Shown piece by piece: positions 2,866 through 18,969 of a stretch of 23,187 nucleotides of DNA. Within the stretch, counting starts at the first letter, position 1; every line of letters begins with the position of its first letter. A model generated the notes under the pieces. It saw only the letters and a list, made by a program, of their open reading frames with translations. It made no database searches and was not told the DNA's origin. Source of the stretch: a virus. The position numbers were made by a program, and so were the translations under genes. The DNA lies in UHGV virus genome UHGV-0778869; one strand, given 5' to 3'.

Positions 2866-3302
2866 GCAGCCCGATCTCCCCATCGCGCTTTCCATTCGAG
2901 AGCCAGTCGCGCTTCGTCTGACCACTTAACGCCACGCTCTGTACCGAATGCCTGTATAAGCTCTAATAGCTCCGCAAATTCGCTTACACGCATCCTGCTG
3001 GTTGACTGGCCTATTACCACAAAGCCATTCCCGGCAAGGTTAGGAACAACGTCCTGCTGCTTTAATGCAGCTGTAAAAACGCACTTCCAGCTTTCTGCAT
3101 CCAGCCAGCGACCATGCCATTCAACCTGACGAGAGACGTCACCAAGGCAAGCCCAAAGCTTTCGATTCTGGTCTAAGCTGCGGTTGCGTTCCTGAATGGT
3201 TACTACGATTGGTTTGGTTGGGTCTGGAAGGATTTGCTGTACTGCGTGAATAGCATTTTGCTGAAGTGCTGGAGATCGAATTTCAAAGGTCAGTTTTTTC
3301 AT
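2862..3302 (-). CDS. ninB: NinB / Orf recombination mediator (146 aa)
   Basis: From internal ATG at 3302: MKKLTFEIRSPALQQNAIHAVQQILPDPTKPIVVTIQERNRSLDQNRKLWACLGDV..., near-identical to lambda NinB as recalled; SD GAGAGGGAAG upstream. Confidence 0.9.
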   Translation of the reverse strand: MKKLTFEIRSPALQQNAIHAVQQILPDPTKPIVVTIQERNRSLDQNRKLWACLGDVSRQVEWHGRWLDAESWKCVFTAALKQQDVVPNLAGNGFVVIGQSTSRMRVSEFAELLELIQAFGTERGVKWSDEARLALEWKARWGDRAA

Positions 3303-3316
3303 GACTTCCCTCTCCC

Positions 3317-3350
3317 CCAAATAAAAAGGCCTGCGATTACCAGCAGGCCT
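3317..3350 (-). terminator. Intrinsic terminator between helicase and ninB (tR2-like position)
   Basis: On minus strand: stem AGGCCTGC (3350-3343) / GCAGGCCT (3334-3327), 8-nt loop, then TTTTATTTGG. Confidence 0.7.
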
Positions 3351-3378
3351 GTTACAAGCTCAGTGATGTAGATGGTCA

Positions 3379-5632: not shown

Positions 5633-5681
5633 ACTGGATGCCTCCTGATGTTGTACAGGGTTATGCCTGTAATCAGCTAAC

Positions 5682-5843
5682 TTAACGACGCCCATGTTTC
5701 ACTCCTGCTTTGGCTAGTCTGTAAACACCAACAAGGCGCTCTGCGAACGCCCTGTTATTTGCTGCGGCTACCACTAATCCCTCAGGTGAATCAGGGTGTC
5801 GAATCTCTTCTTTTTCCTGGTATTTCTTACGACGTTTTGTCAT
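5682..5843 (-). CDS. Hypothetical small basic protein (53 aa) between the cII-like and O-like genes
   Basis: ATG 5843-5841 preceded by AGGAG; MTKRRKKYQEKEEIRHPDSPEGLVVAAANNRAFAERLVGVYRLAKAGVKHGRR. Below the ORF-track size cut-off; found by hand. Confidence 0.4.
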   Translation of the reverse strand: MTKRRKKYQEKEEIRHPDSPEGLVVAAANNRAFAERLVGVYRLAKAGVKHGRR

Positions 5844-5877
5844 AATTACTCCTGTGGATTGATCCAGTCTTTCTACA

Positions 5878-6156
5878 TCAGGCCTCGAAGAATTCGCCGT
5901 TCTTCGGGGCTTTTTCTTTTGTCAGCATTCTGGCTACTTTCTTAGCCAGTTCCGCCAACTCCTCGTCTTCAACACCCCATTCAAGAACAGCAAGAAGCAT
6001 TCCCATTTTGGGGATGAAGCTGTCTTTCCATCGCGAAATTTGCGATTCATTAATCCCTAACGCGTCGGCAACCTTTCGCTGACCACGTACAGCAATTCGA
6101 TTCAGGATGTTGCTTGTAATTGCATTCGCTTTCTTGCGAGTACTTGTAAGTTGCAT
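5878..6156 (-). CDS. cII: CII-like transcriptional activator (P22 C1-like, 92 aa)
   Basis: SQISRWK and MLLAVLEWGV motifs shared with lambda CII; position between cro and O. Confidence 0.85.
   Translation of the reverse strand: MQLTSTRKKANAITSNILNRIAVRGQRKVADALGINESQISRWKDSFIPKMGMLLAVLEWGVEDEELAELAKKVARMLTKEKAPKNGEFFEA
6119..6132 (+). promoter_or_regulatory. Candidate pRE CII-binding site TTGC-N6-TTGC (TTGCTTGTAATTGC)
   Basis: Tandem TTGC tetrads 6 bp apart on the cI-sense strand inside the first codons of the cII-like gene, the lambda pRE arrangement. Confidence 0.6.
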
Positions 6157-6189
6157 ATGTAAGTATTTCCTTAACTAATAAGAAGTTAT

Positions 6190-6207
6190 GCGCATCAACT
6201 TATGCGC
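6190..6207 (-). terminator. Candidate tR1-like hairpin downstream of nutR
   Basis: Minus-strand RNA GCGCAU-AAGUUG-AUGCGC followed by AUAACUUCUUAUUAG; T-run imperfect. Confidence 0.35.
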
Positions 6208-6214
6208 GTTGTAT

Positions 6215-6258
6215 TCCCGCATTTCGGCGGGAATGAGGACCATGACTGTTAAAGAGCG
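6215..6258 (-). promoter_or_regulatory. nutR: boxA CGCTCTTTAACA plus boxB hairpin TCCCGC-CGAAAT-GCGGGA
   Basis: Read on minus strand between cro and cII-like; boxA resembles the E. coli rrn boxA; the identical boxA/boxB pair recurs as nutL. Confidence 0.7.
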
Positions 6259-6264
6259 GTGTTA

Positions 6265-6459
6265 CTATTTGTTTTTCTTGTTGCTTGGGAAAGGACGAAC
6301 TTCCTCTCCAATCACACTGCCATCAGGCTTTACCGTAACCATAATGTTACGGCCTGCCAGAATGGCCTTGCTGATAGCGCACTGGATTACACCAAAGTCA
6401 CTGGCTGCTTTAGCCTGTCCATGGATTTTGGCGTAATCGGCAAGTGTCATTCGAATCAT
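6265..6459 (-). CDS. cro: Cro repressor (lambda Cro fold, 64 aa)
   Basis: ATG 6459 with GGAGAG SD; product ...[41 protein letters not shown] parallels lambda Cro. Confidence 0.85.
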
Positions 6460-6488
6460 ATGCACTCTCCGTTATTAACCATGAACAA

Positions 6489-6559
6489 AGAATACTACAG
6501 GTATTCAAAGCAATCAATACTCAGGGTATTTTTAGTTTGAGTACCTTAGCTATTAGAAT
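6489..6559. promoter_or_regulatory. OR region: three 15-bp operators (6491-6505, 6516-6530, 6540-6554) overlapping divergent pR and pRM
   Basis: AATACTACAGGTATT, AATACTCAGGGTATT, AGTACCTTAGCTATT. pR on minus strand: -35 TTGATT (6517-6512), 17-bp spacer, -10 TATTCT (6494-6489). pRM -10 TAGAAT (6554-6559) would start transcription at the cI ATG. Confidence 0.65.
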
Positions 6560-6565
6560 TAAGCT

Positions 6566-7282
6566 ATGGAAAATAAAAAATCACTGACGACAGAACAGCT
6601 CGAAGACGCTAAGCGGCTTAAGGCTTTGTATGAGTCAAAAAAGAAAGAATTGGGAATAACCCAATACTCAATCGCTGATGAACTGGGTATCACCCAAGGA
6701 GCGGTAGGGCATTATCTTAATGGCAGAAACGCGCTAAACGTTGAGGTCGCATCTGGTTTTGCACGTTTGTTGCAAGTCTCAATTGCTGATTTTAGCCAGT
6801 CAATTGCTGCCAAGGTTGCAGAACAGGCAGAAAGCCTTAAGAGCGATGCCAACGTAAGGTATGCAGGGGAATACAGAGCAGGAAAGAGGTATCCGGTGTT
6901 AAGCAGTATCCAGGCTGGCTCGTGGTGTGAAGCATGCGAACCATACACCATTAAAGACATAGATGTTTGGCTTGAGTCTGACGCGCATATTCAAGGTAAT
7001 GCGTTCTGGCTTAAAGTGGAAGGTGATTCAATGACGGCACCGGTTGGGTTAAGCATTCCAGAGGGAACATTCGTTCTTTTCGATACCGGAAGGGAGGCGA
7101 TCAACGGCAGCTTGGTCATAGCAAAACTTTCTGACTCTAACGAAGCAACATTCAAGAAGCTGATAATCGACGGCGGAAATAAATACCTCAAGGGACTTAA
7201 TCCTGCATGGCCTCTCGTGCCAATCAATGGAAACTGCAAGATTATAGGCGTTGCAATTGAGACAAAACTAAGGCTGGTTTGA
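6566..7282 (+). CDS. cI: CI/C2-type prophage repressor (HTH plus S24 LexA-like autopeptidase, 238 aa)
   Basis: N-terminal HTH (ITQYSIADELGITQGAVGHYLNG); Ala-Gly cleavage site (SIQAGSW), catalytic GDSMTAP and FKKL; C-terminal half close to P22 C2 as recalled. Confidence 0.9.
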   Translation: MENKKSLTTEQLEDAKRLKALYESKKKELGITQYSIADELGITQGAVGHYLNGRNALNVEVASGFARLLQVSIADFSQSIAAKVAEQAESLKSDANVRYAGEYRAGKRYPVLSSIQAGSWCEACEPYTIKDIDVWLESDAHIQGNAFWLKVEGDSMTAPVGLSIPEGTFVLFDTGREAINGSLVIAKLSDSNEATFKKLIIDGGNKYLKGLNPAWPLVPINGNCKIIGVAIETKLRLV

Positions 7283-7299
7283 TCACGCAAGGGGCGATT

Positions 7300-7668
7300 A
7301 TGGTTGGAACCGCTATAGCAAGCTTTTTTGGGATGTTGGCAATCTCGACAATTTACGGCTTAGCGCATGCTTTTATTGCGAAATCTCTATCAGAAAAAAT
7401 AAGCCAGGCTTGGGCGCATAGATCAGCTCGTTTCATGATTCTGGTGATCATAGCAATACAAGGGATATCTGCATTTATCCTCTATGGATCAAGCTTATAC
7501 CTATTGTATCAAGGCGCGACATTTACGCCTTACACCAGTGATTACGGAACTCTATACGATGGTAGTGAAGACATCACTGTGGCTTGGATCGTCTTTGGTT
7601 TATCTATGGCCGTGTCTGTTGTAGCAGACATCATTAAGGTAATTATCGTCTTAACCTTCGCTGACTAA
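7300..7668 (+). CDS. Small polytopic membrane protein (about 122 aa) downstream of cI
   Basis: ATG 7300 with AAGGGG SD (alternative ATG 7279 overlaps the cI stop); three to four hydrophobic helices; same strand as cI. Confidence 0.6.
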   Translation: MVGTAIASFFGMLAISTIYGLAHAFIAKSLSEKISQAWAHRSARFMILVIIAIQGISAFILYGSSLYLLYQGATFTPYTSDYGTLYDGSEDITVAWIVFGLSMAVSVVADIIKVIIVLTFAD

Positions 7669-7754
7669 CCTATAATCCCGGCAGCAATAGCTATCGGGAT
7701 CCACTTCACATATCCCGCATAAAAAGCACTGAACAAGCAGACACCGAAAAAATA

Positions 7755-7841
7755 AATATCCTTTGTATTCATTTGCTTATCATTATTTCACCAAAAATAA
7801 ATACCTTGGGTATTTACACAATAAAATACCTACAGTATTCT
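7755..7841 (+). promoter_or_regulatory. OL region: three 15-bp operators (7755-7769, 7800-7814, 7825-7839) overlapping pL
   Basis: AATATCCTTTGTATT, AATACCTTGGGTATT, AATACCTACAGTATT. pL: -35 TTTACA (7813-7818), 17-bp spacer, -10 TATTCT (7836-7841). Confidence 0.6.
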
Positions 7842-7887
7842 TTAGCCATCAGCAGGACGCTGGAAGCCAAACGGAACAGATTGGCAG

Positions 7888-7928
7888 GCTCTTTAACATT
7901 GATGGGATTGTCCCGCCGAAATGCGGGA
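7888..7928 (+). promoter_or_regulatory. nutL: boxA GCTCTTTAACA (7888-7898) plus boxB hairpin TCCCGC-CGAAAT-GCGGGA (7911-7928)
   Basis: Same boxA/boxB as nutR, downstream of pL and upstream of the N-like gene. Confidence 0.7.
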
Positions 7929-8241
7929 ACCAAAGAGTAGTTGGCTTTGGGGTGACGTGAAGTGCAGCTGCACGACGGCAACCGGAAGATAAGCACCCGG
8001 CGCGCCACCGCCAAAGTCAATTCCATAGGCGTTATGCAGCCGCCACCATATTCAAGAAAGCTGCACAAGAGGTAGGAGGATTTATGTGAATACTTACATT
8101 CAATTGAGAGATTAATTAAATAGAACTGATCGAGCAGAGTCCATAAAGGCTCATAAATGCTCTTCCATCCCCGTCTAATTGGCGGGGAAGGAAACAACTT
8201 TGTAATAAAAAAATTCCAAAGTTGTTTCATCGGAGGTCAAC

Positions 8242-8514
8242 ATGACAGTAGTCATTACATATCTGGCTGACGATAACGCCAGAAATCGCCGCAGAGCACG
8301 CAGACAGGCTCAACGTGAACAGGCAATGCAAGAGCAGCGACTGGCGCGAAAAATTGCGCTAAAGCTCTCTGGTTGCGTCAGAGCAGATAAAGCAGCATCA
8401 CTCGGAAGCCTTCGCTGCAAGAAGGCAGATGAATGCAGTGGAAGTATTTGCCTGCCAAACGTAGCCATTTACTCGGCAGGCTACCGGAAATCAAAACAAC
8501 TGACAGCCAGGTAA
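8242..8514 (+). CDS. N-like transcription antiterminator with arginine-rich motif (P22 gp24-like, 90 aa)
   Basis: GGAGG SD; ARM NARNRRRARRQAQREQA near the N-terminus; C-terminal ...YSAGYRKSKQLTAR resembles P22 gp24 as recalled. Confidence 0.8.
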   Translation: MTVVITYLADDNARNRRRARRQAQREQAMQEQRLARKIALKLSGCVRADKAASLGSLRCKKADECSGSICLPNVAIYSAGYRKSKQLTAR

Positions 8515-8517
8515 GTG

Positions 8518-8742
8518 ATGAATCAGACATACATTCCATCATGCTTGAGAAATCTGCCAAAGCAGAAAGCAAAGCCCCGCAAGCAAGCCATAAAGGACGC
8601 TAAGGCAGAGGTTATTGATCAAGCAATACAATTGCTCAGGGAGGAGTTAAGAAGTGGCAAGCTCGAAGGAATGATGATGCCCTATCAGCGCGGATATCTT
8701 TCGGCGATTAGTAAGCTGGAAGTATTGAAGAGTGAATTATGA
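8518..8742 (+). CDS. Hypothetical protein (74 aa)
   Basis: ATG 8518 after AGGTAAG; MNQTYIPSCLRNLPKQKAKPRKQ...; ATGA overlap with the next gene. No family recognised. Confidence 0.5.
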   Translation: MNQTYIPSCLRNLPKQKAKPRKQAIKDAKAEVIDQAIQLLREELRSGKLEGMMMPYQRGYLSAISKLEVLKSEL

Positions 8743-9431
8743 ACTATCTGGAATTTCCGGATGGTTCATTGTTTTGGCAGCAAACCACTTATTTGAGAGG
8801 AATTAATATGTCATCAATCCGCTTAACTACGAGAATGAAAGAGAAAATCGCTCGTAACGCTTTAATTAAGTCTGGGGTTTTCACTGAGCTTGAAGAAGTA
8901 ACAAAGTTAAAGAGCCAGCTTGCACTTGACGCCAGAGTTATTGCGTTTGGCGGTAAAAAGAAAACTGAGGAAGTGGATCAGTTATCATCCAAGTTAGTAG
9001 CTATAAGTGAAGAACTTGAAAAACTGGGATGTTCATTTTACTCATACGATGTTCGTTCTACTTCAATTTATCTGACTGTATCTGGCAGAAGGGTTGGATG
9101 GCTTTCATATGGGGAAGACGGCAACGGCGAAGATATATTGCTCCCTACTCCGACCAAAGATAAATGCATGTTTGACGCAGAACACGAAATAACAAAAAGG
9201 TTTGATGAAATCTGCGCATTGCAACAAAAACTTGAAGCCAAGAAAAAGGATATCGAATCAAATGTATGGGCTGCTTTGAACTCAGTCACAACAGTTAAGC
9301 GACTTATTGAAGTTTGGTCTGAAAGCAAAGAATTGCTACCAAAAGAAGCAGATAAAGCAAGTACAGCACTTCCTGCTTTACGGGTAGAAGATTTGAATAA
9401 GATGATTGGACTTCCTTCCGAGGCCGCATAG
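8739..9431 (+). CDS. Hypothetical protein (230 aa; alternative start 8808)
   Basis: ORF with coupled start; internal ATG 8808 has a GAGAGG SD; stop lies inside the terminator hairpin. No family recognised. Confidence 0.55.
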   Translation: MNYLEFPDGSLFWQQTTYLRGINMSSIRLTTRMKEKIARNALIKSGVFTELEEVTKLKSQLALDARVIAFGGKKKTEEVDQLSSKLVAISEELEKLGCSFYSYDVRSTSIYLTVSGRRVGWLSYGEDGNGEDILLPTPTKDKCMFDAEHEITKRFDEICALQQKLEAKKKDIESNVWAALNSVTTVKRLIEVWSESKELLPKEADKASTALPALRVEDLNKMIGLPSEAA

Positions 9432-9448
9432 TCGGCCTTTATTTTTGG
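9421..9448 (+). terminator. Intrinsic terminator
   Basis: Stem AGGCCG (9421-9426) / CGGCCT (9433-9438), loop CATAGT, then TTATTTTTGG. Confidence 0.7.
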
Positions 9449-9565
9449 CACTAACAACAGAATAAACACAGCACTGTGTATTCATTCCAACGAGTGAATA
9501 CACGGAGCAATGTCGCTCGTAACTAAACAGGAGCCGACTTGTTCTGATTATTGGAAATCTTCTTT

Positions 9566-9594
9566 GCCCTCCAGTGTGAGGGCAATTTTTTTTG
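9566..9594 (+). terminator. Intrinsic terminator immediately upstream of the next gene's RBS
   Basis: Stem GCCCTC / GAGGGC with loop CAGTGT, then AATTTTTTTTG; GGAGG SD follows at 9597. Confidence 0.7.
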
Positions 9595-9605
9595 ATGGAG
9601 GATAT

Positions 9606-10574
9606 ATGAGTGAAGTAACAGATTTAGTTGTTATTGAAAAAGCAAATGCAATGACTGTATTTCAGTCTGCCGACCAGATTGAAGAAATCCTTCAAAAGGT
9701 TGAACGTGAAGTTATGTCCTTTGTGCCTGATATCACAACGGCAAAGGGCAGAAAGGAGATCGCTTCTCTGGCGTATAAAGTTGCGCAGACGAAAACATAT
9801 CTCGATGGTCTTGGCAAAGACCTTGTTGCTGAACTGAAGGAAATTCCAAAGCTAATTGATGCCAACCGCAAGACAGTGCGTGATCGCCTTGATGAGCTGA
9901 AAGCCAAGGCGCGCCAGCCTCTTACTGATTATGAGGAGGAACAGGCACGGATTAAAGCCGAAGAAGAAGCTAAGGCAGCAGCTGAAGCTCTCGCAAAGCA
10001 AATTGAGTCTGACCATGAAATAGCGATTTTGATGGATCGCGAATTTGACCGCCAAAGAGAAGAGGCAAGACTCAAAGCGGAGCAGGAAAAGCGAGAGCAT
10101 GAAGAACGCTTAAAAAGAGAAGCTGAAGAGAAAGCCAGAGCAGAAGCCGAAGCAAAGGCAAAAGCCGAAATTGAAGCAGCAGCAAGGCGAGAAGCAGAAG
10201 CTAAGGCCGCAGCGGAACGTGCAGAGCGTGAACGTATTGAAGCCGAGCAACGAGCACAGCGCGAAGCAAAAGAGGCAGCAGAACGAGCTGAAAGAGAAAA
10301 GCAGGCGGCAATTGAAGCAGAACGCCGAAAAGCACAGGAGGAGGCTGAACGAATCCGGCGCGAGGCTGAAGCAAAAGAGCAAGCAAGAATAGCAGAAGAA
10401 AAAAGAATCAAGGACGAAGAAGAGCGTAGAGCAAAGGATAAAGCTCACCGGAAAGAAGTAAATAACAAAATACTTGCTGACCTTATCAAGGTTGGCGCAT
10501 CAGAAGATGTTGCTAAAAATATCATAACAGCCATCGTAAAAGGCGAAGTATTCGCAACAAAAATAACCTACTAA
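9606..10574 (+). CDS. Hypothetical protein (322 aa): N-terminal globular domain, long Glu/Ala/Lys/Arg-rich coiled-coil, short C-terminal domain
   Basis: ATG 9606 with GGAGG SD; the low-complexity centre (EAEAKAKAEIEAAARREAEAK...) generates several spurious antisense ORFs; sits upstream of the Sak4-like gene. Confidence 0.7.
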   Translation: MSEVTDLVVIEKANAMTVFQSADQIEEILQKVEREVMSFVPDITTAKGRKEIASLAYKVAQTKTYLDGLGKDLVAELKEIPKLIDANRKTVRDRLDELKAKARQPLTDYEEEQARIKAEEEAKAAAEALAKQIESDHEIAILMDREFDRQREEARLKAEQEKREHEERLKREAEEKARAEAEAKAKAEIEAAARREAEAKAAAERAERERIEAEQRAQREAKEAAERAEREKQAAIEAERRKAQEEAERIRREAEAKEQARIAEEKRIKDEEERRAKDKAHRKEVNNKILADLIKVGASEDVAKNIITAIVKGEVFATKITY

Positions 10575-10598
10575 TAAAACCAACATAAGGAACCACCC

Positions 10599-10745
10599 AT
10601 GATTTACGCAATCGCGGGAGGCGCTCGCATGGGTGCCTTCCAACTAAATGAATCTTTACTTGAACGAATCACCCGTAAATTACGTGACGGATGGAAACGA
10701 CTCATCGACGTACTTAATCAGCCAGGAGTTCCAAAAAATGGATAA
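10599..10745 (+). CDS. Hypothetical small protein (48 aa)
   Basis: ATG 10599 with AAGGA SD 7 nt upstream; MIYAIAGGARMGAFQLNESLLERITRKLRDGWKRLIDVLNQPGVPKNG. Below ORF-track cut-off; found by hand. Confidence 0.4.
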   Translation: MIYAIAGGARMGAFQLNESLLERITRKLRDGWKRLIDVLNQPGVPKNG

Positions 10746-10851
10746 AACACTTATGGCTATCCAGACTAAATTCACTATCGCCGCTTTTATTGGCGATGAA
10801 AAGATGTTTCGTGAGGCCGTCGAAGCCTACAGAAAATGGAGGTCAAAATGA
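10738..10851 (+). CDS. Hypothetical small protein (37 aa)
   Basis: ATG 10738 overlaps the previous ORF end; MDKTLMAIQTKFTIAAFIGDEKMFREAVEAYRKWRSK; the upstream extension of this frame (10648) overlaps the 48-aa ORF. Confidence 0.4.
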   Translation: MDKTLMAIQTKFTIAAFIGDEKMFREAVEAYRKWRSK

Positions 10852-11036
10852 TTCCGGTAGAACTGGCGAAAACTCCAGAGTTAAGTCGATTAAAAAGAGA
10901 ATATCACATTGCTGAGGCTCGTTACTGGCGTAAAGCGGGAGATAAATCAAAGAAACAACTTTGCTTATGGCAGGCACAAAGAGAGCGCATGAATGAGCGT
11001 GAGTTTCTTTCCTCCCCATCCGAATTACCATTCTGA
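10848..11036 (+). CDS. Hypothetical small protein (62 aa)
   Basis: ATG 10848 with GGAGG SD and ATGA overlap with the previous ORF; MIPVELAKTPELSRLKREYHIAEARYWRKAGDKSKKQL... Confidence 0.5.
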   Translation: MIPVELAKTPELSRLKREYHIAEARYWRKAGDKSKKQLCLWQAQRERMNEREFLSSPSELPF

Positions 11037-11044
11037 GGCAAATT

Positions 11045-11746
11045 ATGGGAACTGCGACATTAATACTCGGTGAATCTGGCACCGGAAAATCAACCAGCAT
11101 GAGAAATATCAATCCAGAGGAAGCAATACTTATAAAACCAATAGGCAAGCAGCTTCCATTTAAATCAAAAGACTGGCTGGCATGGGATGCCAGAGCAAAA
11201 AAAGGAACCGTAGTTACCACTGACAAATGGGACGTAATAGTTGCCGTAATTAAGCGTGCTCACGAATACGGGAAAAGAATCGTTATTGTTGATGACTTCC
11301 AGTATGTGATGAGCAATGAGTTTATGCGCCGCTCAGAAGAAAAATCGTTTGATAAATTCACTGAGATAGGCCGCCACGCATGGGAGGTGATTAAGGCTGC
11401 ACAGGATGCACCTGATGACCTGAGAGTCTATTTTCTTGCGCACACCGAAGAAACCCCTATGGGGCGTGTGAAAATGAAGACTATCGGCAAAATGCTGGAC
11501 GAGAAAATCACTGTCGAAGGCATGTTTACTATAGTTCTTCGCACCCTTACCCGCGATGACCAGTTCTTTTTCACCACGAAAACAACGGTGCAGACACTGT
11601 TAAATCCCCAATGGGAATGTTTGATTCTAATGAGATTGATAACGATCTCTCTTTCGTCGATGCCACTGTTTGTGATTACTACGGCATCAATAATGTTCAT
11701 CAAATTAAGGAAAACGCCGCATGAGCAACGTGATTTTTACTTATAA
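11045..11746 (+). CDS. Sak4-like RecA-fold ATPase (AAA_24-type), probably frameshifted near 11560-11590; intact-frame end would be 11724
   Basis: Walker A GESGTGKST, Walker B IVIVDDF. After ...DQFFFTTK the in-frame tail looks non-protein-like, while the -1 frame reads NNGADTVKSPMGMFDSNEIDNDLSFVDATVCDYYGINNVHQIKENAA and ends in a stop that overlaps the next ATG. Confidence 0.7.
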   Translation: MGTATLILGESGTGKSTSMRNINPEEAILIKPIGKQLPFKSKDWLAWDARAKKGTVVTTDKWDVIVAVIKRAHEYGKRIVIVDDFQYVMSNEFMRRSEEKSFDKFTEIGRHAWEVIKAAQDAPDDLRVYFLAHTEETPMGRVKMKTIGKMLDEKITVEGMFTIVLRTLTRDDQFFFTTKTTVQTLLNPQWECLILMRLITISLSSMPLFVITTASIMFIKLRKTPHEQRDFYL

Positions 11747-12308
11747 CGAAGAAGCAGCACTGACCGCAGGGCAAGGTGGTTTTATTAACGAAACTGGTGC
11801 TCATATCATTACCATTACTGAAGCAGAACTAAAGCAATCAGAAAAAGGAGCCAAATTTATTGAGTTTTCTGGCGAATCTGACGACGGACGTAAAATCCAA
11901 TATCTTAGCGTCTGTGTTCAGAAAAATGACGGAACGGAAAACAAATTTGGCGCAAATGTCGTTCACGCCATGATGGGGTGTGCCGGGATTGGACAATTAA
12001 CGCAACATATGGTTTCCGCCAGTAAATTTGTTGCTCCTGAGTTTCATGGAAAGAAAATCGGGTTAGTGCTCCAGAAAGTATTAACCACAAACAAAAAGAC
12101 TGGCGCAGACAGCTACCAGATGGAAATACGCATCCCGTTTATTGCACAAACAGGTCAAACCCTTAAAGAAAAGGCGGAAGGCAAGCAACCAGAAACTATC
12201 GCCAACATGGTTGCCAGCCTCAAAGATAAAGACAATCGCTCTAAAAACGTAAGCCAGAATCATGCAGATGATTATGGTTACAGCCAGAACGATTACCCTC
12301 CTTTCTGA
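11721..12308 (+). CDS. Putative ssDNA-binding partner of the Sak4-like ATPase (195 aa)
   Basis: Immediately downstream of the ATPase; acidic C-terminal tail ending ...DDYGYSQNDYPPF, reminiscent of SSB tips (E. coli SSB ends DDDIPF). OB fold not verifiable by eye. Confidence 0.5.
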   Translation: MSNVIFTYNEEAALTAGQGGFINETGAHIITITEAELKQSEKGAKFIEFSGESDDGRKIQYLSVCVQKNDGTENKFGANVVHAMMGCAGIGQLTQHMVSASKFVAPEFHGKKIGLVLQKVLTTNKKTGADSYQMEIRIPFIAQTGQTLKEKAEGKQPETIANMVASLKDKDNRSKNVSQNHADDYGYSQNDYPPF

Positions 12309-12331
12309 TTATTGAAAATAAGGCTCCCATT

Positions 12332-12628
12332 ATGCCAGCGCCTCTGTATGGTGCGGATGACCCGCGCAATTGCTCCGGTAGCTCCAAGGCGGAGGTGCTG
12401 GAAAATATCAAAAACAATTTCGACGCGTTTCTTGCTCTGACACCAGAAACAAAAGCAGAACGGATGTACCGACGCGATATACAACTCGCGCTAAAACAGG
12501 AGAAGGACCGAACAAACGAAACAGCAATGAGACCGTTGCGAAAAGCGACAATAGACAAATTCCCTGAATATATCGACCCGCGCCTGCGTAATTACCGATC
12601 ACGCTATGGCGCTATCAGTAATGACTGA
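12332..12628 (+). CDS. Hypothetical protein (98 aa)
   Basis: ORF with weak AAGG SD; [34 protein letters not shown]...; no family recognised. Confidence 0.45.
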
Positions 12629-12638
12629 GGAATTTACC

Positions 12639-12803
12639 ATGAGAGGACTTGCATACAATCCCGGCATTCTTCAGGCAGAAATGATTATTCGCCAACGCGT
12701 AAAGCCAATGCCATCGAGAGAGGAATTACTTAAGAGAAATAGTTTCGGTTCTGTTAATGACAACAAATATCTGAATGCGATGTGGCGGAGTGGGAAGAAA
12801 TGA
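12639..12803 (+). CDS. Hypothetical small protein (54 aa)
   Basis: ATG 12639 with GAGGA SD 8 nt upstream; [34 protein letters not shown]... Confidence 0.45.
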
Positions 12804-13231
12804 AACAAATGTCACTAATTGAGATGGATGGATTTCTGAAAGGTAAATGCATCCCACGAGATTTAAAGGTTAACGAAACAAACGCTGAATATCTGGTGCG
12901 TAAGTTCGGTGAACTTGAATCAAAACTAGAAACGGCGTTGCGGGAGTGTCGTTCTGCTGGAATCACGATTGATAACCTTGAGGCTAAATGCGCGAAGATG
13001 GCTGCTGAAAATACCTCACTTAAGCAATCTGAGAAGGAATTTAATGACTTTTGTCGTGAGGAGTTTAGCGAATGGGAAGATGATGTTACTGAAACCCCAG
13101 CCACCGATGCTTTTCTGGCTGAAGTACGGGCGCAGGGGGTAGAGATGTTTGCTGACCATCTGTTGTGCCCAGACCTTGATGACACTATCCGTGACTTTGC
13201 TTCCCAGCTTCGCAAAGGAGGCAACCAATGA
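12800..13231 (+). CDS. Hypothetical acidic protein (143 aa)
   Basis: ATG 12800 overlapping the previous stop (ATGA), GGAG SD; predicted helical/coiled-coil. Confidence 0.55.
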
Positions 13232-13845
13232 GCGAGATTGACTATCAGGCATTGCGTGCTAAGGCAGAAAAAGCAACGTGTGGCGAGTGGTCGCTCGAAT
13301 ATGGAGAGGGCCGATTTGATGGTGATGATGCGCTAATTCATCGCGAGGCTGCTGGATATCTTCCCATTTGCAGAATTGAAGGAGCGCATCCTGAAAGCGG
13401 TTTCGATGAAGATTTCCAAATGGAACAGCAGGCCAATGCTGAATTCATCGCCGCAGCCAATCCGGCTACCGTCTTGGCGCTGCTTGGCGAGCTGGAAGCA
13501 GCAGAGAACAACCTTATTGATAGTGAATGCCATGTTGCTGAACTGGAAGAAGCGCTACGCGATAAGCAGGCGTTACTTGAAGCATCAGAAAAGCGCATAG
13601 CAGAACTGGAAGCCGAACTCGTAAGCCAAACTTACAAGTTGAACGAGCTATCGGGCAACTCTCCGGTAACTCCGGATGGTTGGGTTGTAGTGCCGAAGGA
13701 GTTAACACCGGAAATGATGAGAGCCGTTCAGATTAGAAGTGAGCTTGGAGGGTATGCCACTTCCAATCTATCTGGTGCATACAATATGTTTTCTGAGTTC
13801 TGGAATGTTGCTGTCTCAGCTGCGCCTAAGGTGGATGATTTATGA
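13228..13845 (+). CDS. Ead/Ea22-like protein (205 aa)
   Basis: Strong AAAGGAGG SD; N-terminus [22 protein letters not shown]... and central coiled coil resemble the Ead/Ea22-like family of lambdoid prophages as recalled. Confidence 0.55.
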   Translation: MSEIDYQALRAKAEKATCGEWSLEYGEGRFDGDDALIHREAAGYLPICRIEGAHPESGFDEDFQMEQQANAEFIAAANPATVLALLGELEAAENNLIDSECHVAELEEALRDKQALLEASEKRIAELEAELVSQTYKLNELSGNSPVTPDGWVVVPKELTPEMMRAVQIRSELGGYATSNLSGAYNMFSEFWNVAVSAAPKVDDL

Positions 13846-13991
13846 ATCTATATCGCTGCCCATTCTGTGGTTCCACTGTGCTTAACATCGGATACTCATT
13901 CAGTATCAGAGGGAAAATGCGCTATGTGTCATGCAAATGTGGTGCCCAAGGACCAGAAAAACGAACTAGATCTGAAGCGATTTCTTCATGA
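13842..13991 (+). CDS. Small zinc-ribbon protein, Lar-like (restriction alleviation family) candidate (49 aa)
   Basis: MNLYRCPFCGSTVLNIGYSFSIRGKMRYVSCKCGAQGPEKRTRSEAISS; CPFCG...CKCG motif; ATGA overlap with the upstream gene. Found by hand. Confidence 0.45.
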   Translation: MNLYRCPFCGSTVLNIGYSFSIRGKMRYVSCKCGAQGPEKRTRSEAISS

Positions 13992-14000
13992 AATAGTCGA

Positions 14001-14138
14001 ATGAAAGTATGGGTTTATGATCCAGAAACAATATTAAACGTTGAAGAGCGCAGGAGAACAGAAGTCTATATTCATAACCTTAATGAAGATGGATTTACAC
14101 CAGTGCTCGTAAAGGCTACTCCGCAGGAGGTGAAGTGA
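14001..14138 (+). CDS. Hypothetical small protein (45 aa), weakly supported
   Basis: ATG 14001, no clear SD; MKVWVYDPETILNVEERRRTEVYIHNLNEDGFTPVLVKATPQEVK. Confidence 0.25.
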   Translation: MKVWVYDPETILNVEERRRTEVYIHNLNEDGFTPVLVKATPQEVK

Positions 14139-14416
14139 TGGACTCCTTCGCGAAATATACGATTATTGACTGGATAGCATTCCTTCAGGTTTTGCTCATC
14201 TGGTTTTATATGGCTTACAGGAGTGGACAGTGGATTGTCAGTGTAGCCTGTAGCAGGGGATGGCGTTGGTGGAACCGAAAGAATAAAAAAGCACTGGCAT
14301 TGGATTCGTTTTACGAAGCATTCAATCTTAACAGTCTTCAGCCTGGTTCTGTCATTGTAGTCACCACTCAAAGCGGCATGACCATTCAGATTCATAAACC
14401 AAAAGAGGAAAAATGA
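14138..14416 (+). CDS. Small membrane protein (92 aa) with one N-terminal transmembrane helix
   Basis: ATG 14138 with AGGAGG SD; hydrophobic IIDWIAFLQVLLIWFYMAY then basic stretch RGWRWWNRKNKK. Confidence 0.55.
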   Translation: MDSFAKYTIIDWIAFLQVLLIWFYMAYRSGQWIVSVACSRGWRWWNRKNKKALALDSFYEAFNLNSLQPGSVIVVTTQSGMTIQIHKPKEEK

Positions 14417-14502
14417 TGTGGCCTATATGTGTTAATTGCGGACGGATGTGCCTATCTGGATGGTGCCGAAAGTGCGACAAATGCACGAAGAAAAGACAAT
14501 AA
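14413..14502 (+). CDS. Cys-rich mini-protein (29 aa), zinc-ribbon-like
   Basis: AGAGGA SD; MMWPICVNCGRMCLSGWCRKCDKCTKKRQ; start overlaps the upstream stop. Confidence 0.3.
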   Translation: MMWPICVNCGRMCLSGWCRKCDKCTKKRQ

Positions 14503-14536
14503 CAATCCTCGCACTCGCGGGGATTTCTTTTATCTG

Positions 14537-14563
14537 AACTCGCTAGGGCGAGTTTTGTTTTAT
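14537..14563 (+). terminator. Intrinsic terminator
   Basis: Stem AACTCGC / GCGAGTT with loop TAGG, then TTGTTTTAT; the next gene's SD follows. Confidence 0.7.
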
Positions 14564-14574
14564 GGAGACAAGAA

Positions 14575-14919
14575 ATGTCAGATTTGGCTATGAAGGTTTT
14601 GAAATGGCAATCGACTGGCGATGTTGGCATTAGTAGCGCAACTCTTGCCTCAATCGCATGTGGACTGGAAAAGAATATCTATGGTCATCACTTCGGCGCT
14701 CCCCATGACGCAGCAGACTTCCGGCGATGCGTTGCACTTGTTGAGCAGATTCCAGAAATCAGAGATTCATTCGACAAGGTTGCAAAGCGCGTTCCGGCAT
14801 TCAAAGGCATCCTCACCGAATGGGATTCCCTCGTTGCTCTGTTGAAGTCTGAAATGAAGATACACCGAAACAAAGCACCAGAGACTTACAGAAGAATTAG
14901 CGAGTTACGCAAGGACTAA
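14575..14919 (+). CDS. Hypothetical protein (114 aa)
   Basis: ATG 14575 with GGAGA SD; MSDLAMKVLKWQSTGDVGISSATLASIACGLEKNIYGHHFGAPHDAADFRR...; no family recognised. Confidence 0.55.
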   Translation: MSDLAMKVLKWQSTGDVGISSATLASIACGLEKNIYGHHFGAPHDAADFRRCVALVEQIPEIRDSFDKVAKRVPAFKGILTEWDSLVALLKSEMKIHRNKAPETYRRISELRKD

Positions 14920-14977
14920 CCACAGCCTAACACTCGATGAGGCCAGTTCATTTCTCAAGATATCCAGACATACCATC

Positions 14978-15001
14978 GCCGCATCAATGCGGCTTTTTCT
15001 T
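14978..15001 (+). terminator. Intrinsic terminator upstream of xis
   Basis: Stem GCCGCA / TGCGGC with loop TCAA, then TTTTTCTT. Confidence 0.6.
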
Positions 15002-15013
15002 GCGTGTAATTGC
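15000..15013 (+). promoter_or_regulatory. Candidate pI CII-binding site TTGC-N6-TTGC (TTGCGTGTAATTGC)
   Basis: Same motif as at pRE; sits just 5' of the xis ATG so that a dependent transcript would start inside xis, as for lambda pI. Confidence 0.6.
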
Positions 15014-15025
15014 GGAGACTTTGCG

Positions 15026-15244
15026 ATGTACTTGACACTTCAGGAGTGGAACGCTCGCCAGCGACGCCCAAGAAGCCTTGAAACAGTTCGTCGATGGGTG
15101 CGCGAGTGCAGGATATTCCCTCCTCCGGTTAAGGATGGAAGAGAGTATCTGTTCCACGAATCAGCGGTAAAGGTTGACTTAAATCGACCAGTAACAGGTA
15201 GCCTTTTGAAGAGGATCAGAAATGGGAAGAAGGCGAAGTCATGA
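15026..15244 (+). CDS. xis: Excisionase Xis (72 aa)
   Basis: MYLTLQEWNARQRRPRSLETVRRWVRECRIFPPPVKDGREYLFHESAVKVDLNRPVTGSLLKRIRNGKKAKS matches lambda Xis as recalled; overlaps int by 23 nt. Confidence 0.95.
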   Translation: MYLTLQEWNARQRRPRSLETVRRWVRECRIFPPPVKDGREYLFHESAVKVDLNRPVTGSLLKRIRNGKKAKS

Positions 15245-16292
15245 GCGCCGGGATTTACCCCCTAACCTTTATATAAGAAACAATGGATATTACTGCTACA
15301 GGGACCCAAGGACGGGTAAAGAGTTTGGATTAGGCAGAGACAGGAGGATAGCAATCACTGAAGCTATACAGGCCAACATTGAGTTATTTTCAGGACACAA
15401 ACACAAGCCTCTGACAGCGAGAATCAACAGTGATAATTCTGTTACGTTACATTCATGGCTTGATCGCTACGAAAAAATACTCGCCAGCAGAGGAATCAAG
15501 CAGAAGACACTCATAAATTACATGAGCAAAATTAAAGCAATAAGGAGGGGTCTGCCTGATGCTCCACTTGAAGACATCACCACAAAAGAAATTGCGGCAA
15601 TGCTCAATGGATATATAGACGATGGCAAGGCGGCGTCAGCCAAGTTAATCAGATCAACACTGAGCGATGCATTCCGAGAGGCAATAGCTGAAGGCCATAT
15701 AACAACAAACCCGGTCGCTGCCACTCGCGCAGCAAAATCAGAGGTAAGGAGATCAAGGCTTACGGCTGACGAATACCTGAAAATTTATCAAGCAGCAGAA
15801 TCATCACCATGTTGGCTCAGACTTGCAATGGAACTGGCTGTTGTTACCGGGCAGCGAGTTGGTGATTTATGCGAAATGAAGTGGTCTGATATCGTAGATG
15901 GATATCTTTATGTCGAGCAAAGCAAAACAGGCGTAAAAATTGCCATCCCAACAGCATTGCATGTTGATGCCCTCGGGATATCAATGAAGGAAACACTTGA
16001 TAAATGCAAAGAGATTCTTGGCGGAGAAACCATAATTGCATCTACTCGTCGTGAACCGCTTTCATCCGGCACAGTATCAAGGTATTTTATGCGCGCACGA
16101 AAAGCATCAGGTCTTTCCTTCGAAGGGGATCCGCCTACCTTTCACGAGTTGCGCAGTTTGTCTGCAAGACTCTATGAGAAGCAGATAAGCGATAAGTTTG
16201 CTCAACATCTTCTCGGGCATAAGTCGGACACCATGGCATCACAGTATCGTGATGACAGAGGCAGGGAGTGGGACAAAATTGAAATCAAATAA
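15222..16292 (+). CDS. int: Tyrosine integrase, lambda Int type (356 aa)
   Basis: MGRRRSHERRDLPPNLYIRNNGYYCYRDPRTGKEFGLGRDRRIAITEA... ...HELRSLSARLYEKQ...LLGHKSDTMASQYRDD: essentially lambda Int as recalled, with the R-H-R-Y catalytic region. Confidence 0.95.
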   Translation: MGRRRSHERRDLPPNLYIRNNGYYCYRDPRTGKEFGLGRDRRIAITEAIQANIELFSGHKHKPLTARINSDNSVTLHSWLDRYEKILASRGIKQKTLINYMSKIKAIRRGLPDAPLEDITTKEIAAMLNGYIDDGKAASAKLIRSTLSDAFREAIAEGHITTNPVAATRAAKSEVRRSRLTADEYLKIYQAAESSPCWLRLAMELAVVTGQRVGDLCEMKWSDIVDGYLYVEQSKTGVKIAIPTALHVDALGISMKETLDKCKEILGGETIIASTRREPLSSGTVSRYFMRARKASGLSFEGDPPTFHELRSLSARLYEKQISDKFAQHLLGHKSDTMASQYRDDRGREWDKIEIK

Positions 16293-16540
16293 TGATTTTA
16301 TTTTGACTGATAGTGACCTGTTCGTTGCAACAAATTGATAAGCAATGCTTTTTTATAATGCCAACTTAGTATAAAAAAGCTGAACGTGAAACATTAAAAA
16401 TCATTAATATCAATGCATTACAATATCTTTAGTCTAAAAAATAGACTACATAATGCGACAAAACACAACATATCCAGTCACTATGAATCAACCACTTAGA
16501 TGGTATTAGTGACCTGTAACAGAGCATTAGCGCAAGGTGA
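16293..16540. other. attP: P' arm, 15-bp core (16366-16380, reverse complement of GCTTTTTTATACTAA) and P arm
   Basis: P' arm and core match lambda attP as recalled; the P arm (16476-16525) is similar to lambda's but diverged. Confidence 0.85.
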
Positions 16541-16543
16541 TTT

Positions 16544-16584
16544 TTGTCTTCTTGCGCTAATTTTTTGTCAACATACTGGGTTAT
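16544..16584 (+). terminator. sib / tI-like hairpin terminator downstream of attP
   Basis: Stem TTAGCGCAAG / CTTGCGCTAA (10 bp), 14-nt loop, then TTTTTTG; matches the lambda sib/tI region as recalled. Confidence 0.75.
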
Positions 16585-16781
16585 CTGAATTTACAACCAT
16601 GCTCAGTATCTCGATAAGCGCAGAGAAATGATGCAGTGGTGGGCGGACTGGCTTGATGAAAAGGTGGAGTGATCCACCTTTACCATTATCGAAGAGAACA
16701 AAGCCTTGCAAGCCAATGCAAAGCTTTGTGTGTCCCGTTTTTGTCTCAACATAGCCTTAGATATAGACAACGCAATCACTT

Positions 16782-18848
16782 TTATTGGAATGAAATACTG
16801 CACTCCATTTCAGTTGGTGACCCTGTATTGCTGTACGTTACAATAGTCCATGAGGTTGCAGATACCTTGTTTACGACCATGTATCTCCCAGTTCCTGGTG
16901 ACGTAAATGTATATCCTGCAGTCGACATGTCTGTCGGAAATGTTATCACCCAAACACCAGGTGATGTTTTGGATGCTAAGCATCCAACTGCTGATAACAG
17001 AACTCCTGAGCTATTTATATTTACAACACATGGTGAGTTTATAATCTTAACAACACCTGTATCAAGTATGTATGTATCAAACACTTTACCTATTCTGTTG
17101 CCATTTAGGTATGTAACTGCTGTTGCTGACAATCCAGCCCTGTTCCTTAAAACAGTTGAAACTCCAAGCCCTGAGCAATTAGTTACTTGCTGATCTGATA
17201 CCATTCCTGAAGTTGAACTAAATTGCTCCATAATTGCATCAACGGTATTTGACCCATTAAAGCAGTTGAATGAAACGTTCTCTAACTTATTCCTTCTCAC
17301 TGACTTTCCTGAGTCAGATCTAACGTTGCAGATTCTGTTGTACTGCCCTGGAGTGTTTATTTGTACAAATCCACCTCTTATCTTGTTGTCAAGACAGTCT
17401 GTTAATGATTCGCTATGGTCGTATAAATCATACGCTCTTTTAAAATCACCATTATTATTCATGAAGATTAAAACATCTTCTATGAGATTGTTACTACAAC
17501 CTTGAATAGCTATCACGCTATCATTACCATTAAAAGCACCATTTGCGATACTGGTAAATTTACCGCCAACAATCTTGCAGTTAGTGCATCCGCGTGAGAA
17601 CTTAATGTTATTGTTACCACCTATAGCGCCATCGACATTCCCAAGAACTGATGAATTATGAATTCCTTCACAGTTTATGAACTGAAAATCAGTAGTAGGA
17701 AATCCAATACCGTCAGCAGAAGTAGCATGATAATTAACAAGCAGCCCGTTTTCTGCGTATCCTCCCTGAACAAACCCACCCTTAACTCCAAGTATCTCCA
17801 TGTTACCACCGGCCTTAGATTGTCCTATAAACCTTGGCATGGTTATCTCAGGGTCAATAGCGCCGATAACGACAAAGTTACCATGGTTAGCTCCCTTATG
17901 ACCGGTTCCATCAAAGGTGCATCTAATGGCCCTTATCTTTGATCGTCTAGTTGAATCAGCAGATCCGTAAGAAGTATTTCCCATTCTTAATGGCGTCACA
18001 TCTGAATCACCATTGAAATACAGATCTCTTACTTCTATATTATTCCCTGTTAATTCTATTGCACCAAAGCTCTTATTAAACAATGATCCTGTCAAAGTTA
18101 TTCTAGCCTGATTGATGGCTAATATTTTTTTATTGTCAAGGCTTGATATTACGTTATTTGTTATTTTTACATTTATATCTATGTAAATCTCATCAAAATA
18201 TATTAACAACATACTGATTAGTGATGTTATATCACTGTCAGGTGATGTCCAGTCGCTAATTTTTGTGCTTCTAGACCGTGTTCTTTTTTCAAGATAACAA
18301 GTTACCCCGCCAATCACTGCGGAGTTTTGACTCAATGACGATATTGTTCCGCTTGCTGGAGGTGATATATAAAATAATCCAAATTCAGTGTGAATATCTG
18401 TTGTACCAACAGGAATAATATCTCCAACCTTTGCCGTAGCTCTTACATCATTAGGGAATACAACCCCTGGCAATATTTCGTCACGCATTTCATTGACGTA
18501 TACTCTTAACTGGTCAGGGTCATACTTCAACACATTAGGAAAATAGAACTGCTGCGCACCATATGCATCATAAACAGCCATCGAATGACCTTGCACGGTA
18601 ACGAATTTGGCAATCTGTCCGTTATATACCGGGTAACCAGCAGCGTTAATGATGATTGGTTGCGAAACAGGAACGTGAGAACCGTCTTCGTTCTCCACAT
18701 AAACCTGAATCTGGTTTTCAGGATTTACCGGATCCGTGTCAATTTTACCGATATAAATTTTGCCATTGGCTACGGCTTTAAAAGAACGAGCCATAGTGAA
18801 GAGTTGCGAAGGCATGCTTACCACAACATTTGCGGTGATATCTGACAT
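16782..18848 (-). CDS. Tailspike protein: P22-type N-terminal head-binding domain fused to a distinct beta-helix receptor-binding domain (about 688 aa)
   Basis: ATG 18848 with GGAG SD; N-terminus [43 protein letters not shown]...NVLKYDPDQ parallels P22 gp9 residues 1-110; the rest is Gly/Asn-rich repeats typical of right-handed beta-helix depolymerases and unlike P22 gp9. Confidence 0.85.
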
Positions 18849-18969
18849 TTCATTGCTCCAGACGAATGATATGATGCAACCATGATGTGATTGCATACCG
18901 AAATGGTACTATTGAGTATTTATCCAGTAGGTTACGATGCCATTCCACCCAACTGGTGAGGCATCAAGG

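What the first reader, a model, noticed from the sequence alone, without database searches (positions are those of the whole stretch)
11045..11746. Probable -1 frameshift in the Sak4-like ATPase gene
The Walker A/B ATPase frame ends in an implausible tail (NPQWECLILMRLITISLSSMPLFVITTASIMF...), while the -1 frame from about 11560 reads a conserved-looking acidic C-terminus (...MFDSNEIDNDLSFVDATVCDYYGINNVHQIKENAA). That frame stops at 11722-11724, overlapping the next gene's ATG (11721) in the usual coupled arrangement. The break lies in or next to T5 (11567-11571) or A4 (11579-11582) runs. It is either a sequencing error, a true inactivating mutation, or less likely programmed slippage.
Basis: seen in the sequence. 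Interest (0 to 1): 0.5.

Follow-up and report, generated by a model that had tools for sequence, protein, structure and literature searches.

The report
One-base deletion breaks phage sak4 gene
A phage recombination gene (sak4) has lost one A from a run of five, which replaces its conserved last 47 amino acids with unrelated sequence; this is an ordinary private mutation or base-calling error, not a programmed frameshift.

Summary
ORF 11045..11746 (+) is the homologue of phage HK620 hkaL/sak4, a RecA-core single-strand annealing ATPase. The window has A4 at 11579-11582. Every relative examined has one more A: 74 phage and IMG/VR loci, 181 complete E. coli genomes and 65 phage records. Adding one A gives a 681-nt, 226-aa gene. 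Its product equals phage JEP4's except P36Q, and its stop overlaps the ssb start as ATGA (11721-11724). The Sak4 profile phrog_2872 splits across two frames: positions 1-179 in frame 0 and 173-218 in frame -1 (E 2.9e-19). The 47 lost residues are among the best conserved and are confidently folded in an AlphaFold model.

The A4 allele was absent from IMG/VR, GTDB genomes and JGI metagenomes. One NCBI E. coli protein (STM16565.1) shows the same junction in a different sequence background, so this run is a recurrent indel site.

There is no canonical slippery heptamer, no significant downstream RNA structure and no Rfam match, and relatives with the same flanking sequence need no shift. Programmed slippage is therefore very unlikely.

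No other homopolymer in the comparable part of the window is aberrant. I slightly favour a real, very recent inactivating deletion over an isolated consensus error, but only reads can decide. Interest is low.

The parts
11045..11581 (+). sak4 (hkaL homologue), native reading frame, codons 1-179. It includes Walker A (GESGTGKS, codons 9-16) and Walker B (IVIVDD, codons 79-84).
   Evidence: phrog_2872 'Sak4-like ssDNA annealing protein' positions 1-179, E 2e-83. Pfam AAA_24 at 29.2 bits against a cut-off of 27. 97.9% nt identity to HK620 hkaL over 10900-11900 and 99.8% to JEP4_32.
11579..11582 (+). The lesion: A4 where relatives have A5 (G+A5) or A6 (A+A5). One A is deleted in a homopolymer.
   Evidence: Alignment A1. 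The deletion is seen in 57 of 57 aligned loci. The run census gives 51 loci with G+A5, 23 with A+A5 and none with A4. None of 181 E. coli genomes or 65 phage records is a perfect match to a 72-nt probe. Exact-pattern scans for A4 found 0 hits in IMG/VR, GTDB genomes and JGI metagenomes, against 70 IMG/VR hits for the intact pattern.
11582..11746 (+). Out-of-frame tail of the broken ORF: 54 aberrant codons plus TAA. It runs 22 nt beyond the native stop, into ssb.
   Evidence: Translation. The tail does not align with any homologue's C-terminus. Query coverage by database proteins stops at about 78%.
11581..11724 (+). Native C-terminal coding segment of sak4 (residues 180-226 plus TGA), now in the -1 frame. 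The frame is open from 11560.
   Evidence: Translation. phrog_2872 positions 173-218, E 2.9e-19. The segment is identical at nucleotide level to JEP4. It contains the conserved motif NNGxDTVKSPMGMF...IDNDL..VD..I.DYY.
11707..11711 (+). Shine-Dalgarno-like AAGGA, 9 nt upstream of the ssb ATG.
   Evidence: Read directly from the sequence. Its function is inferred.
11721..12308 (+). Cognate phage SSB (hkaK homologue, DUF669). It is intact and ends in NDYPPF.
   Evidence: phrog_743 'single strand DNA binding protein', E 1.8e-66. HK620 annotation. The NDYPPF tail is required for stimulation of Sak4, according to PMC5928155.
10836..11036 (+). hkaM homologue, upstream gene of the recombination module.
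   Evidence: phrog_1723, E 2e-33. HK620 and JEP4 annotation.
12332..12628 (+). abc2 anti-RecBCD gene, the intact downstream member of the module.
   Evidence: phrog_656, E 5.1e-45, full length.

Best explanation
The gene is a Sak4-family (RecA-core, ATP-dependent) single-strand annealing recombinase. It sits in the early-left recombination module (hkaM-sak4-ssb-abc2) of a mosaic P22-like (Lederbergvirus-type) phage genome.

In this copy, replication slippage removed one A from an A5 run at codons 179-180 (AAA AAC to AAA ACA). Translation keeps residues 1-179 and then reads 54 unrelated codons. It stops at a TAA 22 nt beyond the normal stop, inside ssb.

The 47 lost residues form a conserved, folded part of the protein. 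The product is therefore most likely inactive or unstable, which makes this a very recent null or strongly hypomorphic allele. The phage would rely on host RecA-dependent recombination, as P22 erf mutants do in recA+ hosts.

Shown here: the deletion, its uniqueness, the conservation of the lost part and the split homology across two frames.

Inferred: loss of function, tolerance by the phage, and that the deletion is in the DNA rather than only in the base calls.
For: - One A is missing relative to all relatives: alignment A1, 57 of 57 aligned loci, a census of 74 loci with none at A4, and no perfect match in 181 E. coli genomes or 65 phage records.
- Adding one A gives 226 aa, equal to the JEP4 protein except P36Q and to HK620 Sak4 except P36Q and E43D.
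- Homologues down to 55% identity are 214-230 aa and cover the C-terminus. Invariant or near-invariant residues in the lost part include N180, G182, D184, K187, P189, F193, N200, D201 and D206.
- The AlphaFold2 model has pLDDT 89.9, with residues 171-210 at block means of 92-96. The best PDB match is a Sak4 structure (8rc5), followed by RAD51 paralogues, RadA and RecA, aligned over about the full length.
- The sequence downstream of the lesion is identical to JEP4, so the event is recent.
- The window does not look error-ridden. Of its 107 homopolymer runs of 5 or more bases, the runs lying in the parts with close relatives showed no other deviation from all relatives, and that includes the A7 run inside sak4.
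- The same run is shortened independently in STM16565.1 (P0143), which has a different background (LIPMR against LILMR).
- Frameshifted genes in recombination modules of lambdoid phages are on record (an SSB-1 pseudogene in phage Brookers, PMC12315714).
Against: - No reads are available, so an isolated consensus error gives exactly the same picture.
- The allele was found in no other sequence of this background. The absence of any secondary decay fits an error as well as a very recent mutation.
- Loss of function was not measured. No C-terminal truncation of Sak4 was found in the passages of PMC5928155 that I searched.
Confidence: 0.55

Rival explanations
1. This is a sequencing or assembly artefact. 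The phage DNA has A5 and an intact 226-aa sak4, and the consensus dropped one A in the homopolymer.
For: - The change is a one-base length change in a homopolymer, the commonest consensus error type for long-read and flow-based platforms (general knowledge).
- The allele is unique: 0 hits in three collection scans, and the protein is not on record.
- The downstream sequence is identical to JEP4, with no further decay.
- Other database entries for this gene show multiple homopolymer indels typical of noisy assemblies. P0121 has both the A7 run and the T5 run shortened.
Against: No other homopolymer that could be compared with close relatives differs from all of them. That includes longer and more error-prone runs: A7 at 11197 within the same gene, A7 at 8207 and T7 at 2471. 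A single error in a short A5 run while all longer runs are correct is not the usual pattern of a homopolymer-prone platform.
Confidence: 0.42
2. This is programmed or leaky recoding. Ribosomes shift -1 in the overlap zone 11560-11582, or RNA polymerase adds an A, so that functional full-length Sak4 is still made from the A4 allele. The most plausible route is P-site tRNA-Lys slipping from AAA (11579-11581) to GAA (11578-11580), which would restore the native sequence exactly.
For: - The -1 frame is open across the junction.
- A slip of tRNA-Lys on G_AAA_A would give exactly ...TTK-NNGADTV. E. coli tRNA-Lys is known to be slip-prone (general knowledge).
- A 7-bp hairpin at 11584-11601 follows the run.
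Against: - There is no canonical X_XXY_YYZ heptamer. G_AAA_ACA and C_TTT_TTC both mismatch.
- The downstream fold is not significant (z = -1.11; 25 of 200 shuffles fold as well), and the hairpin starts only 1 nt after the run.
- There is no Rfam match.
- A4 is far too short for transcriptional slippage (general knowledge).
- More than 300 relatives with the same flanking sequence are in frame, so nothing here evolved to promote a shift. At most, background leakiness would be expected.
Confidence: 0.03

Closest known systems
Sak4 (HkaL) of Enterobacteria phage HK620, NP_112045.1, characterised by Hutinet et al. 2018 (PMC5928155)
   Same: 97.9% nucleotide identity over 10900-11900. The gene order hkaM-sak4-ssb-abc2 is the same. 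The repaired protein differs only by P36Q and E43D. The ATGA overlap with the cognate ssb is the same, and the SSB ends in NDYPPF.
   Different: The window copy lacks one A, so residues 180-226 are replaced (A4 against A6 in HK620, where the preceding G is an A).
JEP4_32 'DNA binding ATPase' of Escherichia phage JEP4 (MT740315.1)
   Same: 99.8% identity over 1 kb. The only differences are C to A at 11151 (P36Q) and the missing A.
   Different: JEP4 is intact at 681 nt and 226 aa.
Other frameshifted alleles of the same gene in public data: STM16565.1 (P0143), MDD7852113.1 (P0147) and the ENA protein P0121
   Same: They carry the same out-of-frame tail (...TTVQTL.NPQWECLI.MRLITISLSSMPLFVITTASIMFIKLRKTPHEQRDFYL). 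P0143 has the identical junction FFFTTK|TTVQ, that is, the same A run shortened.
   Different: They have different sequence backgrounds (LIPMR or LIQ against LILMR). P0121 and P0147 are shortened in the T5 run instead (QFFSPRK), and several carry additional N-terminal disruptions. They are therefore independent events or errors.
Staphylococcal phage Sak4 (PDB 8rc5) and RAD51 paralogues, RadA and RecA
   Same: The predicted fold of the intact protein matches over about the full length (Foldseek E 6e-7, probability 1.00).
   Different: Sequence identity is only 10-16% and TM-scores are about 0.5. These are distant relatives within the RecA-core superfamily.

Membership tests
Sak4-like ssDNA annealing proteins (phrog_2872; Pfam AAA_24) | Full-length match to the family profile | tested here: not met
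   The ORF as it stands matches only profile positions 1-179 of 219. The remainder (173-218) lies in the -1 frame. The copy repaired with one A, and its closest homologue P0001, match positions 1-218 (E 1.9e-107). The locus is therefore a disrupted member of the family.
Sak4-like ssDNA annealing proteins (phrog_2872; Pfam AAA_24) | Walker A and Walker B motifs of a RecA-core ATPase | tested here: met
   GESGTGKS (9-16) and IVIVDD (79-84) are present and lie in invariant columns. AAA_24 scores 29.2 bits against a cut-off of 27.
Sak4-like ssDNA annealing proteins (phrog_2872; Pfam AAA_24) | RecA-like core fold without the RecA C-terminal domain | tested here: met
   This was tested on the intact homologue P0001. 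The AlphaFold2 model has pLDDT 89.9, and the top Foldseek hits are Sak4 (8rc5), RAD51 paralogues, RadA and RecA.
Sak4-like ssDNA annealing proteins (phrog_2872; Pfam AAA_24) | Adjacent cognate non-canonical SSB gene with an acidic or aromatic C-terminal tail | tested here: met
   ORF 11721..12308 matches phrog_743 at E 1.8e-66 and ends in NDYPPF. The feature is described in PMC5928155.
Sak4-like ssDNA annealing proteins (phrog_2872; Pfam AAA_24) | ATP-dependent ssDNA binding and annealing activity | not testable with these tools
   This is biochemistry. It has been shown only for the HK620 protein (PMC5928155).
Programmed -1 ribosomal frameshift sites | Slippery heptamer X_XXY_YYZ in the zero frame within the frame overlap | tested here: not met
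   The overlap zone 11560-11582 holds only C_TTT_TTC and G_AAA_ACA, and neither is canonical.
Programmed -1 ribosomal frameshift sites | Stimulatory RNA structure 5-9 nt downstream | tested here: not met
   The fold of 11560-11680 has z = -1.11. The only hairpin begins 1 nt after the run. There is no Rfam family.
Programmed -1 ribosomal frameshift sites | The two-frame arrangement is conserved among relatives | tested here: not met
   All relatives are in a single frame.

The most novel reading that the evidence does not exclude
The A4 allele might not be dead. Low-level -1 P-site slippage of tRNA-Lys at G_AAA_A would restore the exact native Sak4. The phage would then make a small, perhaps sufficient, amount of recombinase while most ribosomes read through the ssb start. 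The homopolymer would in effect act as a reversible on/off (phase-variable) switch for the recombination module. The independent recurrence of the same run shortening in another E. coli prophage (P0143) is the only hint in this direction.
Probability: 0.03. Interest if true: 0.4.

Novelty: already known. Interest (0 to 1): 0.1.

Why it matters
It matters mainly for annotation. The locus should be annotated as a frameshifted sak4 (pseudogene or 'sequence needs checking'), not as a 233-aa ATPase, and the 37-aa ORF at 11611..11724 is not a gene.

If the deletion is real, this phage is a natural sak4-null with intact ssb and abc2. It could be used to ask whether Sak4 is dispensable for a P22-like coliphage in recA+ hosts. 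Otherwise this is an ordinary homopolymer indel.

Tried and rejected
- Exact-product look-up of the 233-aa ORF found nothing on record.
- Exact-pattern scans for the A4 allele in IMG/VR, GTDB genomes and JGI metagenomes all returned zero.
- A phmmer search of the intact protein against PDB sequences found no hit at E up to 1. Only the fold search worked.
- Pfam is too weak here to show the split across frames, because AAA_24 covers only about residue 170-182 in both versions. PHROGs was decisive instead.
- Whole-window searches found no near-identical phage or prophage (best coverage 49%), so the source could not be identified.
- I considered and rejected excess private mutation in sak4 as a sign of relaxed selection. 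The window has 8 private substitutions in 5,681 comparable positions, and 1 in sak4 is what that rate predicts.
- I considered and rejected a break at the T5 run. That would give QFFSPRK, as in P0121 and P0147, whereas the window reads FFFTTK.

Full report
**What is in the sequence**

ORF 11045..11746 (+) encodes 233 aa, with Walker A GESGTGKS and Walker B IVIVDD. T5 lies at 11567-11571 and A4 at 11579-11582. The -1 frame is open from 11560 and reads PVLFHHENNGADTVKSPMGMFDSNEIDNDLSFVDATVCDYYGINNVHQIKENAA. It stops at the TGA at 11722-11724, which overlaps the ATG at 11721 of the next ORF as ATGA.

**Identity of the gene**

The 1-kb region is 99.8% identical to Escherichia phage JEP4 and 97.9% identical to phage HK620. 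In those phages the gene is JEP4_32 and hkaL ('Sak4-like ssDNA annealing protein'), each 681 nt and 226 aa. It is followed by hkaK (SSB) with an ATGA overlap, then abc2.

HK620 Sak4 is a characterised RecA-core, ATP-dependent single-strand annealing protein. [quoted passage not shown] The window's SSB (11721..12308) is intact and ends in NDYPPF. The neighbours hkaM (10836..11036) and abc2 (12332..12628) are intact too.

**The lesion**

In every BLAST hit the subject is one base longer than the query. Alignment A1 places the gap in the A run: the window has ACG-AAAAC, JEP4 and Stx phages have ACGAAAAAC, and HK620 has ACAAAAAAC.

- In 57 of 57 loci aligned at 95% identity or more, the same one-A deletion is called. 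It is the only indel in the window shared by all aligned relatives.
- A regular-expression census of 74 loci gives 51 with G+A5, 23 with A+A5 (an A6 run) and none with A4.
- A 72-nt probe centred on the run finds no perfect match in 181 complete E. coli genomes or 65 phage records. The best hits are 72/73 with one gap.
- Exact-pattern scans for the A4 allele return 0 in IMG/VR, 0 in GTDB species genomes and 0 in JGI metagenomes. The intact pattern occurs in 70 IMG/VR contigs.
- Inserting one A gives a 226-aa protein identical to JEP4's except P36Q, and to HK620 Sak4 except P36Q and E43D.

The codon table shows K179 (AAA) retained and N180 (AAC) turned into ACA. So 179 native residues are kept, 47 are lost and 54 aberrant residues are added. 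The new TAA stop at 11744-11746 lies 22 nt past the native stop, inside ssb.

**Is the -1 frame piece real?**

Yes. phrog_2872 (Sak4-like, 219 positions) matches the frame-0 ORF on positions 1-179 (E 2e-83). It matches the 54-aa -1-frame piece on positions 173-218 (E 2.9e-19). An intact homologue matches positions 1-218 (E 1.9e-107).

The homologues listed, down to about 55% identity, are nearly all 214-230 aa and cover the C-terminus. The exceptions are a few truncated or partial entries and one 280-aa protein. In alignments A2 and A3 the lost segment holds invariant or near-invariant residues: N180, G182, D184, T185, K187, S188, P189, G191, F193, I198, N200, D201, L202, D206 and Y212. The window's tail aligns with none of them.

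An AlphaFold2 model of the intact protein has mean pLDDT 89.9 and pTM 0.88. Residues 171-210 have block means of 92-96 and include a strand (197-199) and a helix (202-213). Only residues 218-226 are disordered. Foldseek places the model next to a solved Sak4 (8rc5), then RAD51 paralogues, RadA and RecA, over about the full length. The lost part is therefore an integral, conserved part of the fold, and I infer that the product is inactive or unstable.

**Does any homologue naturally carry the tail?**

A search with the 233-aa ORF against 5.8 billion protein clusters gives about 78% coverage for all intact homologues. The exceptions are sporadic broken alleles.

- P0121 (ENA) and P0147 (MDD7852113.1) read QFFSPRKTTVQ, which is a T5 to T4 deletion.
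- P0143 (STM16565.1, E. coli) reads FFFTTKTTVQTL. That is the same A-run shortening, but in an Stx-phage-like background (LIPMR against LILMR) and with a different N-terminus.

So the tail is never a conserved feature. The two adjacent homopolymers are recurrent sites of one-base loss, whether by real mutation or by error.

**Error or mutation?**

The window has 107 homopolymer runs of 5 or more bases. These include A7 at 11197 inside sak4, A7 at 8207, T7 at 2471 and T8 at 9586. Positions 1-16380 and 19812-22927, apart from 1242-1632, have relatives at mostly 95% identity or more. Within those parts, no other run differs from all relatives. The T8 run varies among the relatives themselves and is probably a terminator T-tract.

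All other genes I could compare have the expected lengths:

| Gene | Length (aa) |
|---|---|
| O | 296 |
| cII | 92 |
| N | 90 |
| ssb | 195 |
| abc2 | 98 |
| int | 356 |
| gp16 | 665 |

This is not the pattern of a homopolymer-prone assembly, which slightly favours a real deletion. On the other hand the allele is private, and the downstream sequence is still identical to JEP4. That fits either a very recent mutation or a lone consensus error.

Private substitutions occur at 8 per 5,681 comparable positions. One of them (C to A at 11151, P36Q) lies in sak4, so there is no sign of relaxed selection. I put a real mutation at about 0.55 and an error at about 0.42.

**Programmed recoding**

The needed shift is -1, within 11560-11582. 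Neither C_TTT_TTC nor G_AAA_ACA is a canonical slippery heptamer. The downstream fold is unremarkable (z = -1.11), and its 7-bp hairpin starts 1 nt after the run. Rfam finds nothing. A4 is too short for transcriptional slippage (general knowledge).

Hundreds of relatives with the same flanking sequence are in one frame. A rare P-site slip of tRNA-Lys from AAA to GAA would restore the exact native protein, so background leakiness is conceivable. Nothing indicates that it is programmed. I put this at about 0.03.

**Context and consequence**

The window is a mosaic P22-like genome with no close full-length relative. The best matches are Sf6 at 49% coverage in the phage collection and 48% in E. 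coli genomes. int (15222..16292, +) directly abuts the tailspike gene (16782..18896, -). That is the attP, non-integrated configuration.

By analogy with P22 erf (established genetics), a recombinase-null phage of this type can grow in recA+ hosts. This is an inference. Frameshifted or missing genes in recombination modules are documented among lambdoid phages (PMC12315714).

A side effect is that ribosomes on the broken ORF now terminate 8 codons into ssb, so the ATGA termination-reinitiation coupling is lost. An AAGGA 9 nt upstream of the ssb ATG should still allow independent initiation. This too is an inference.

**Verdict**

This is an ordinary one-base homopolymer deletion, or an isolated base-calling error, in a known gene. 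Interest is low.

Noticed in passing
window 16782-18896 (-), especially 16749-18507: The tailspike is 704 aa. Only the N-terminal head-binding domain (aa 17-135) matches PHROG tailspike families. The DNA of the receptor-binding part has no megablast match in the 50,697-record phage collection. This may be an undescribed receptor-binding or depolymerase domain.
   Followed up: partly
L002 (HK620) 2176-2190, and 23 of 74 related loci: In HK620-type alleles the run is A6 and forms the canonical slippery heptamer A_AAA_AAC in phase (ACA AAA AAC). A -1 slip there would stop after 7 codons and give a 186-aa truncated Sak4. There is no evidence that it is used.
   Followed up: no
window 9510-10574 (+); T8 at 9586-9593: The first 32 codons of the 354-aa ORF are probably not coding, because phrog_1376 covers the protein from M33 at 9606. 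The T8 run just upstream varies in length among relatives. It corresponds to the tL2A terminator region annotated in Sf6. The protein has a long Glu/Ala/Lys/Arg-rich repeat and is labelled 'TolA' in some E. coli annotations.
   Followed up: partly
window 10385, 11151, 12673, 15479: Four of the eight substitutions private to the window (absent from 10 or more relatives) are C to A transversions. One of them is P36Q in sak4. This could be chance, or a mutational or library-damage signature.
   Followed up: no
protein database entries P0121, P0147, P0143, P0061, P0128: Several independent broken alleles of this sak4 exist in public assemblies. They include T5 to T4, A-run -1, a shortened A7 run and an internal deletion. 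Some carry several homopolymer indels in one gene, which is typical of noisy assemblies.
   Followed up: partly
window 15222-18896: The integrase gene directly abuts the tailspike gene on the opposite strand. The sequence is therefore in the attP (virion or circular) arrangement, not an integrated prophage.
   Followed up: partly
window 11611-11724 (+): The 37-aa ATG ORF (MGMFDSNEID...) listed by the ORF finder is only the tail of the native sak4 frame. It should not be annotated as a separate gene.
   Followed up: yes
whole window: There are no tRNA genes and no Rfam family at gathering threshold.
   Followed up: yes
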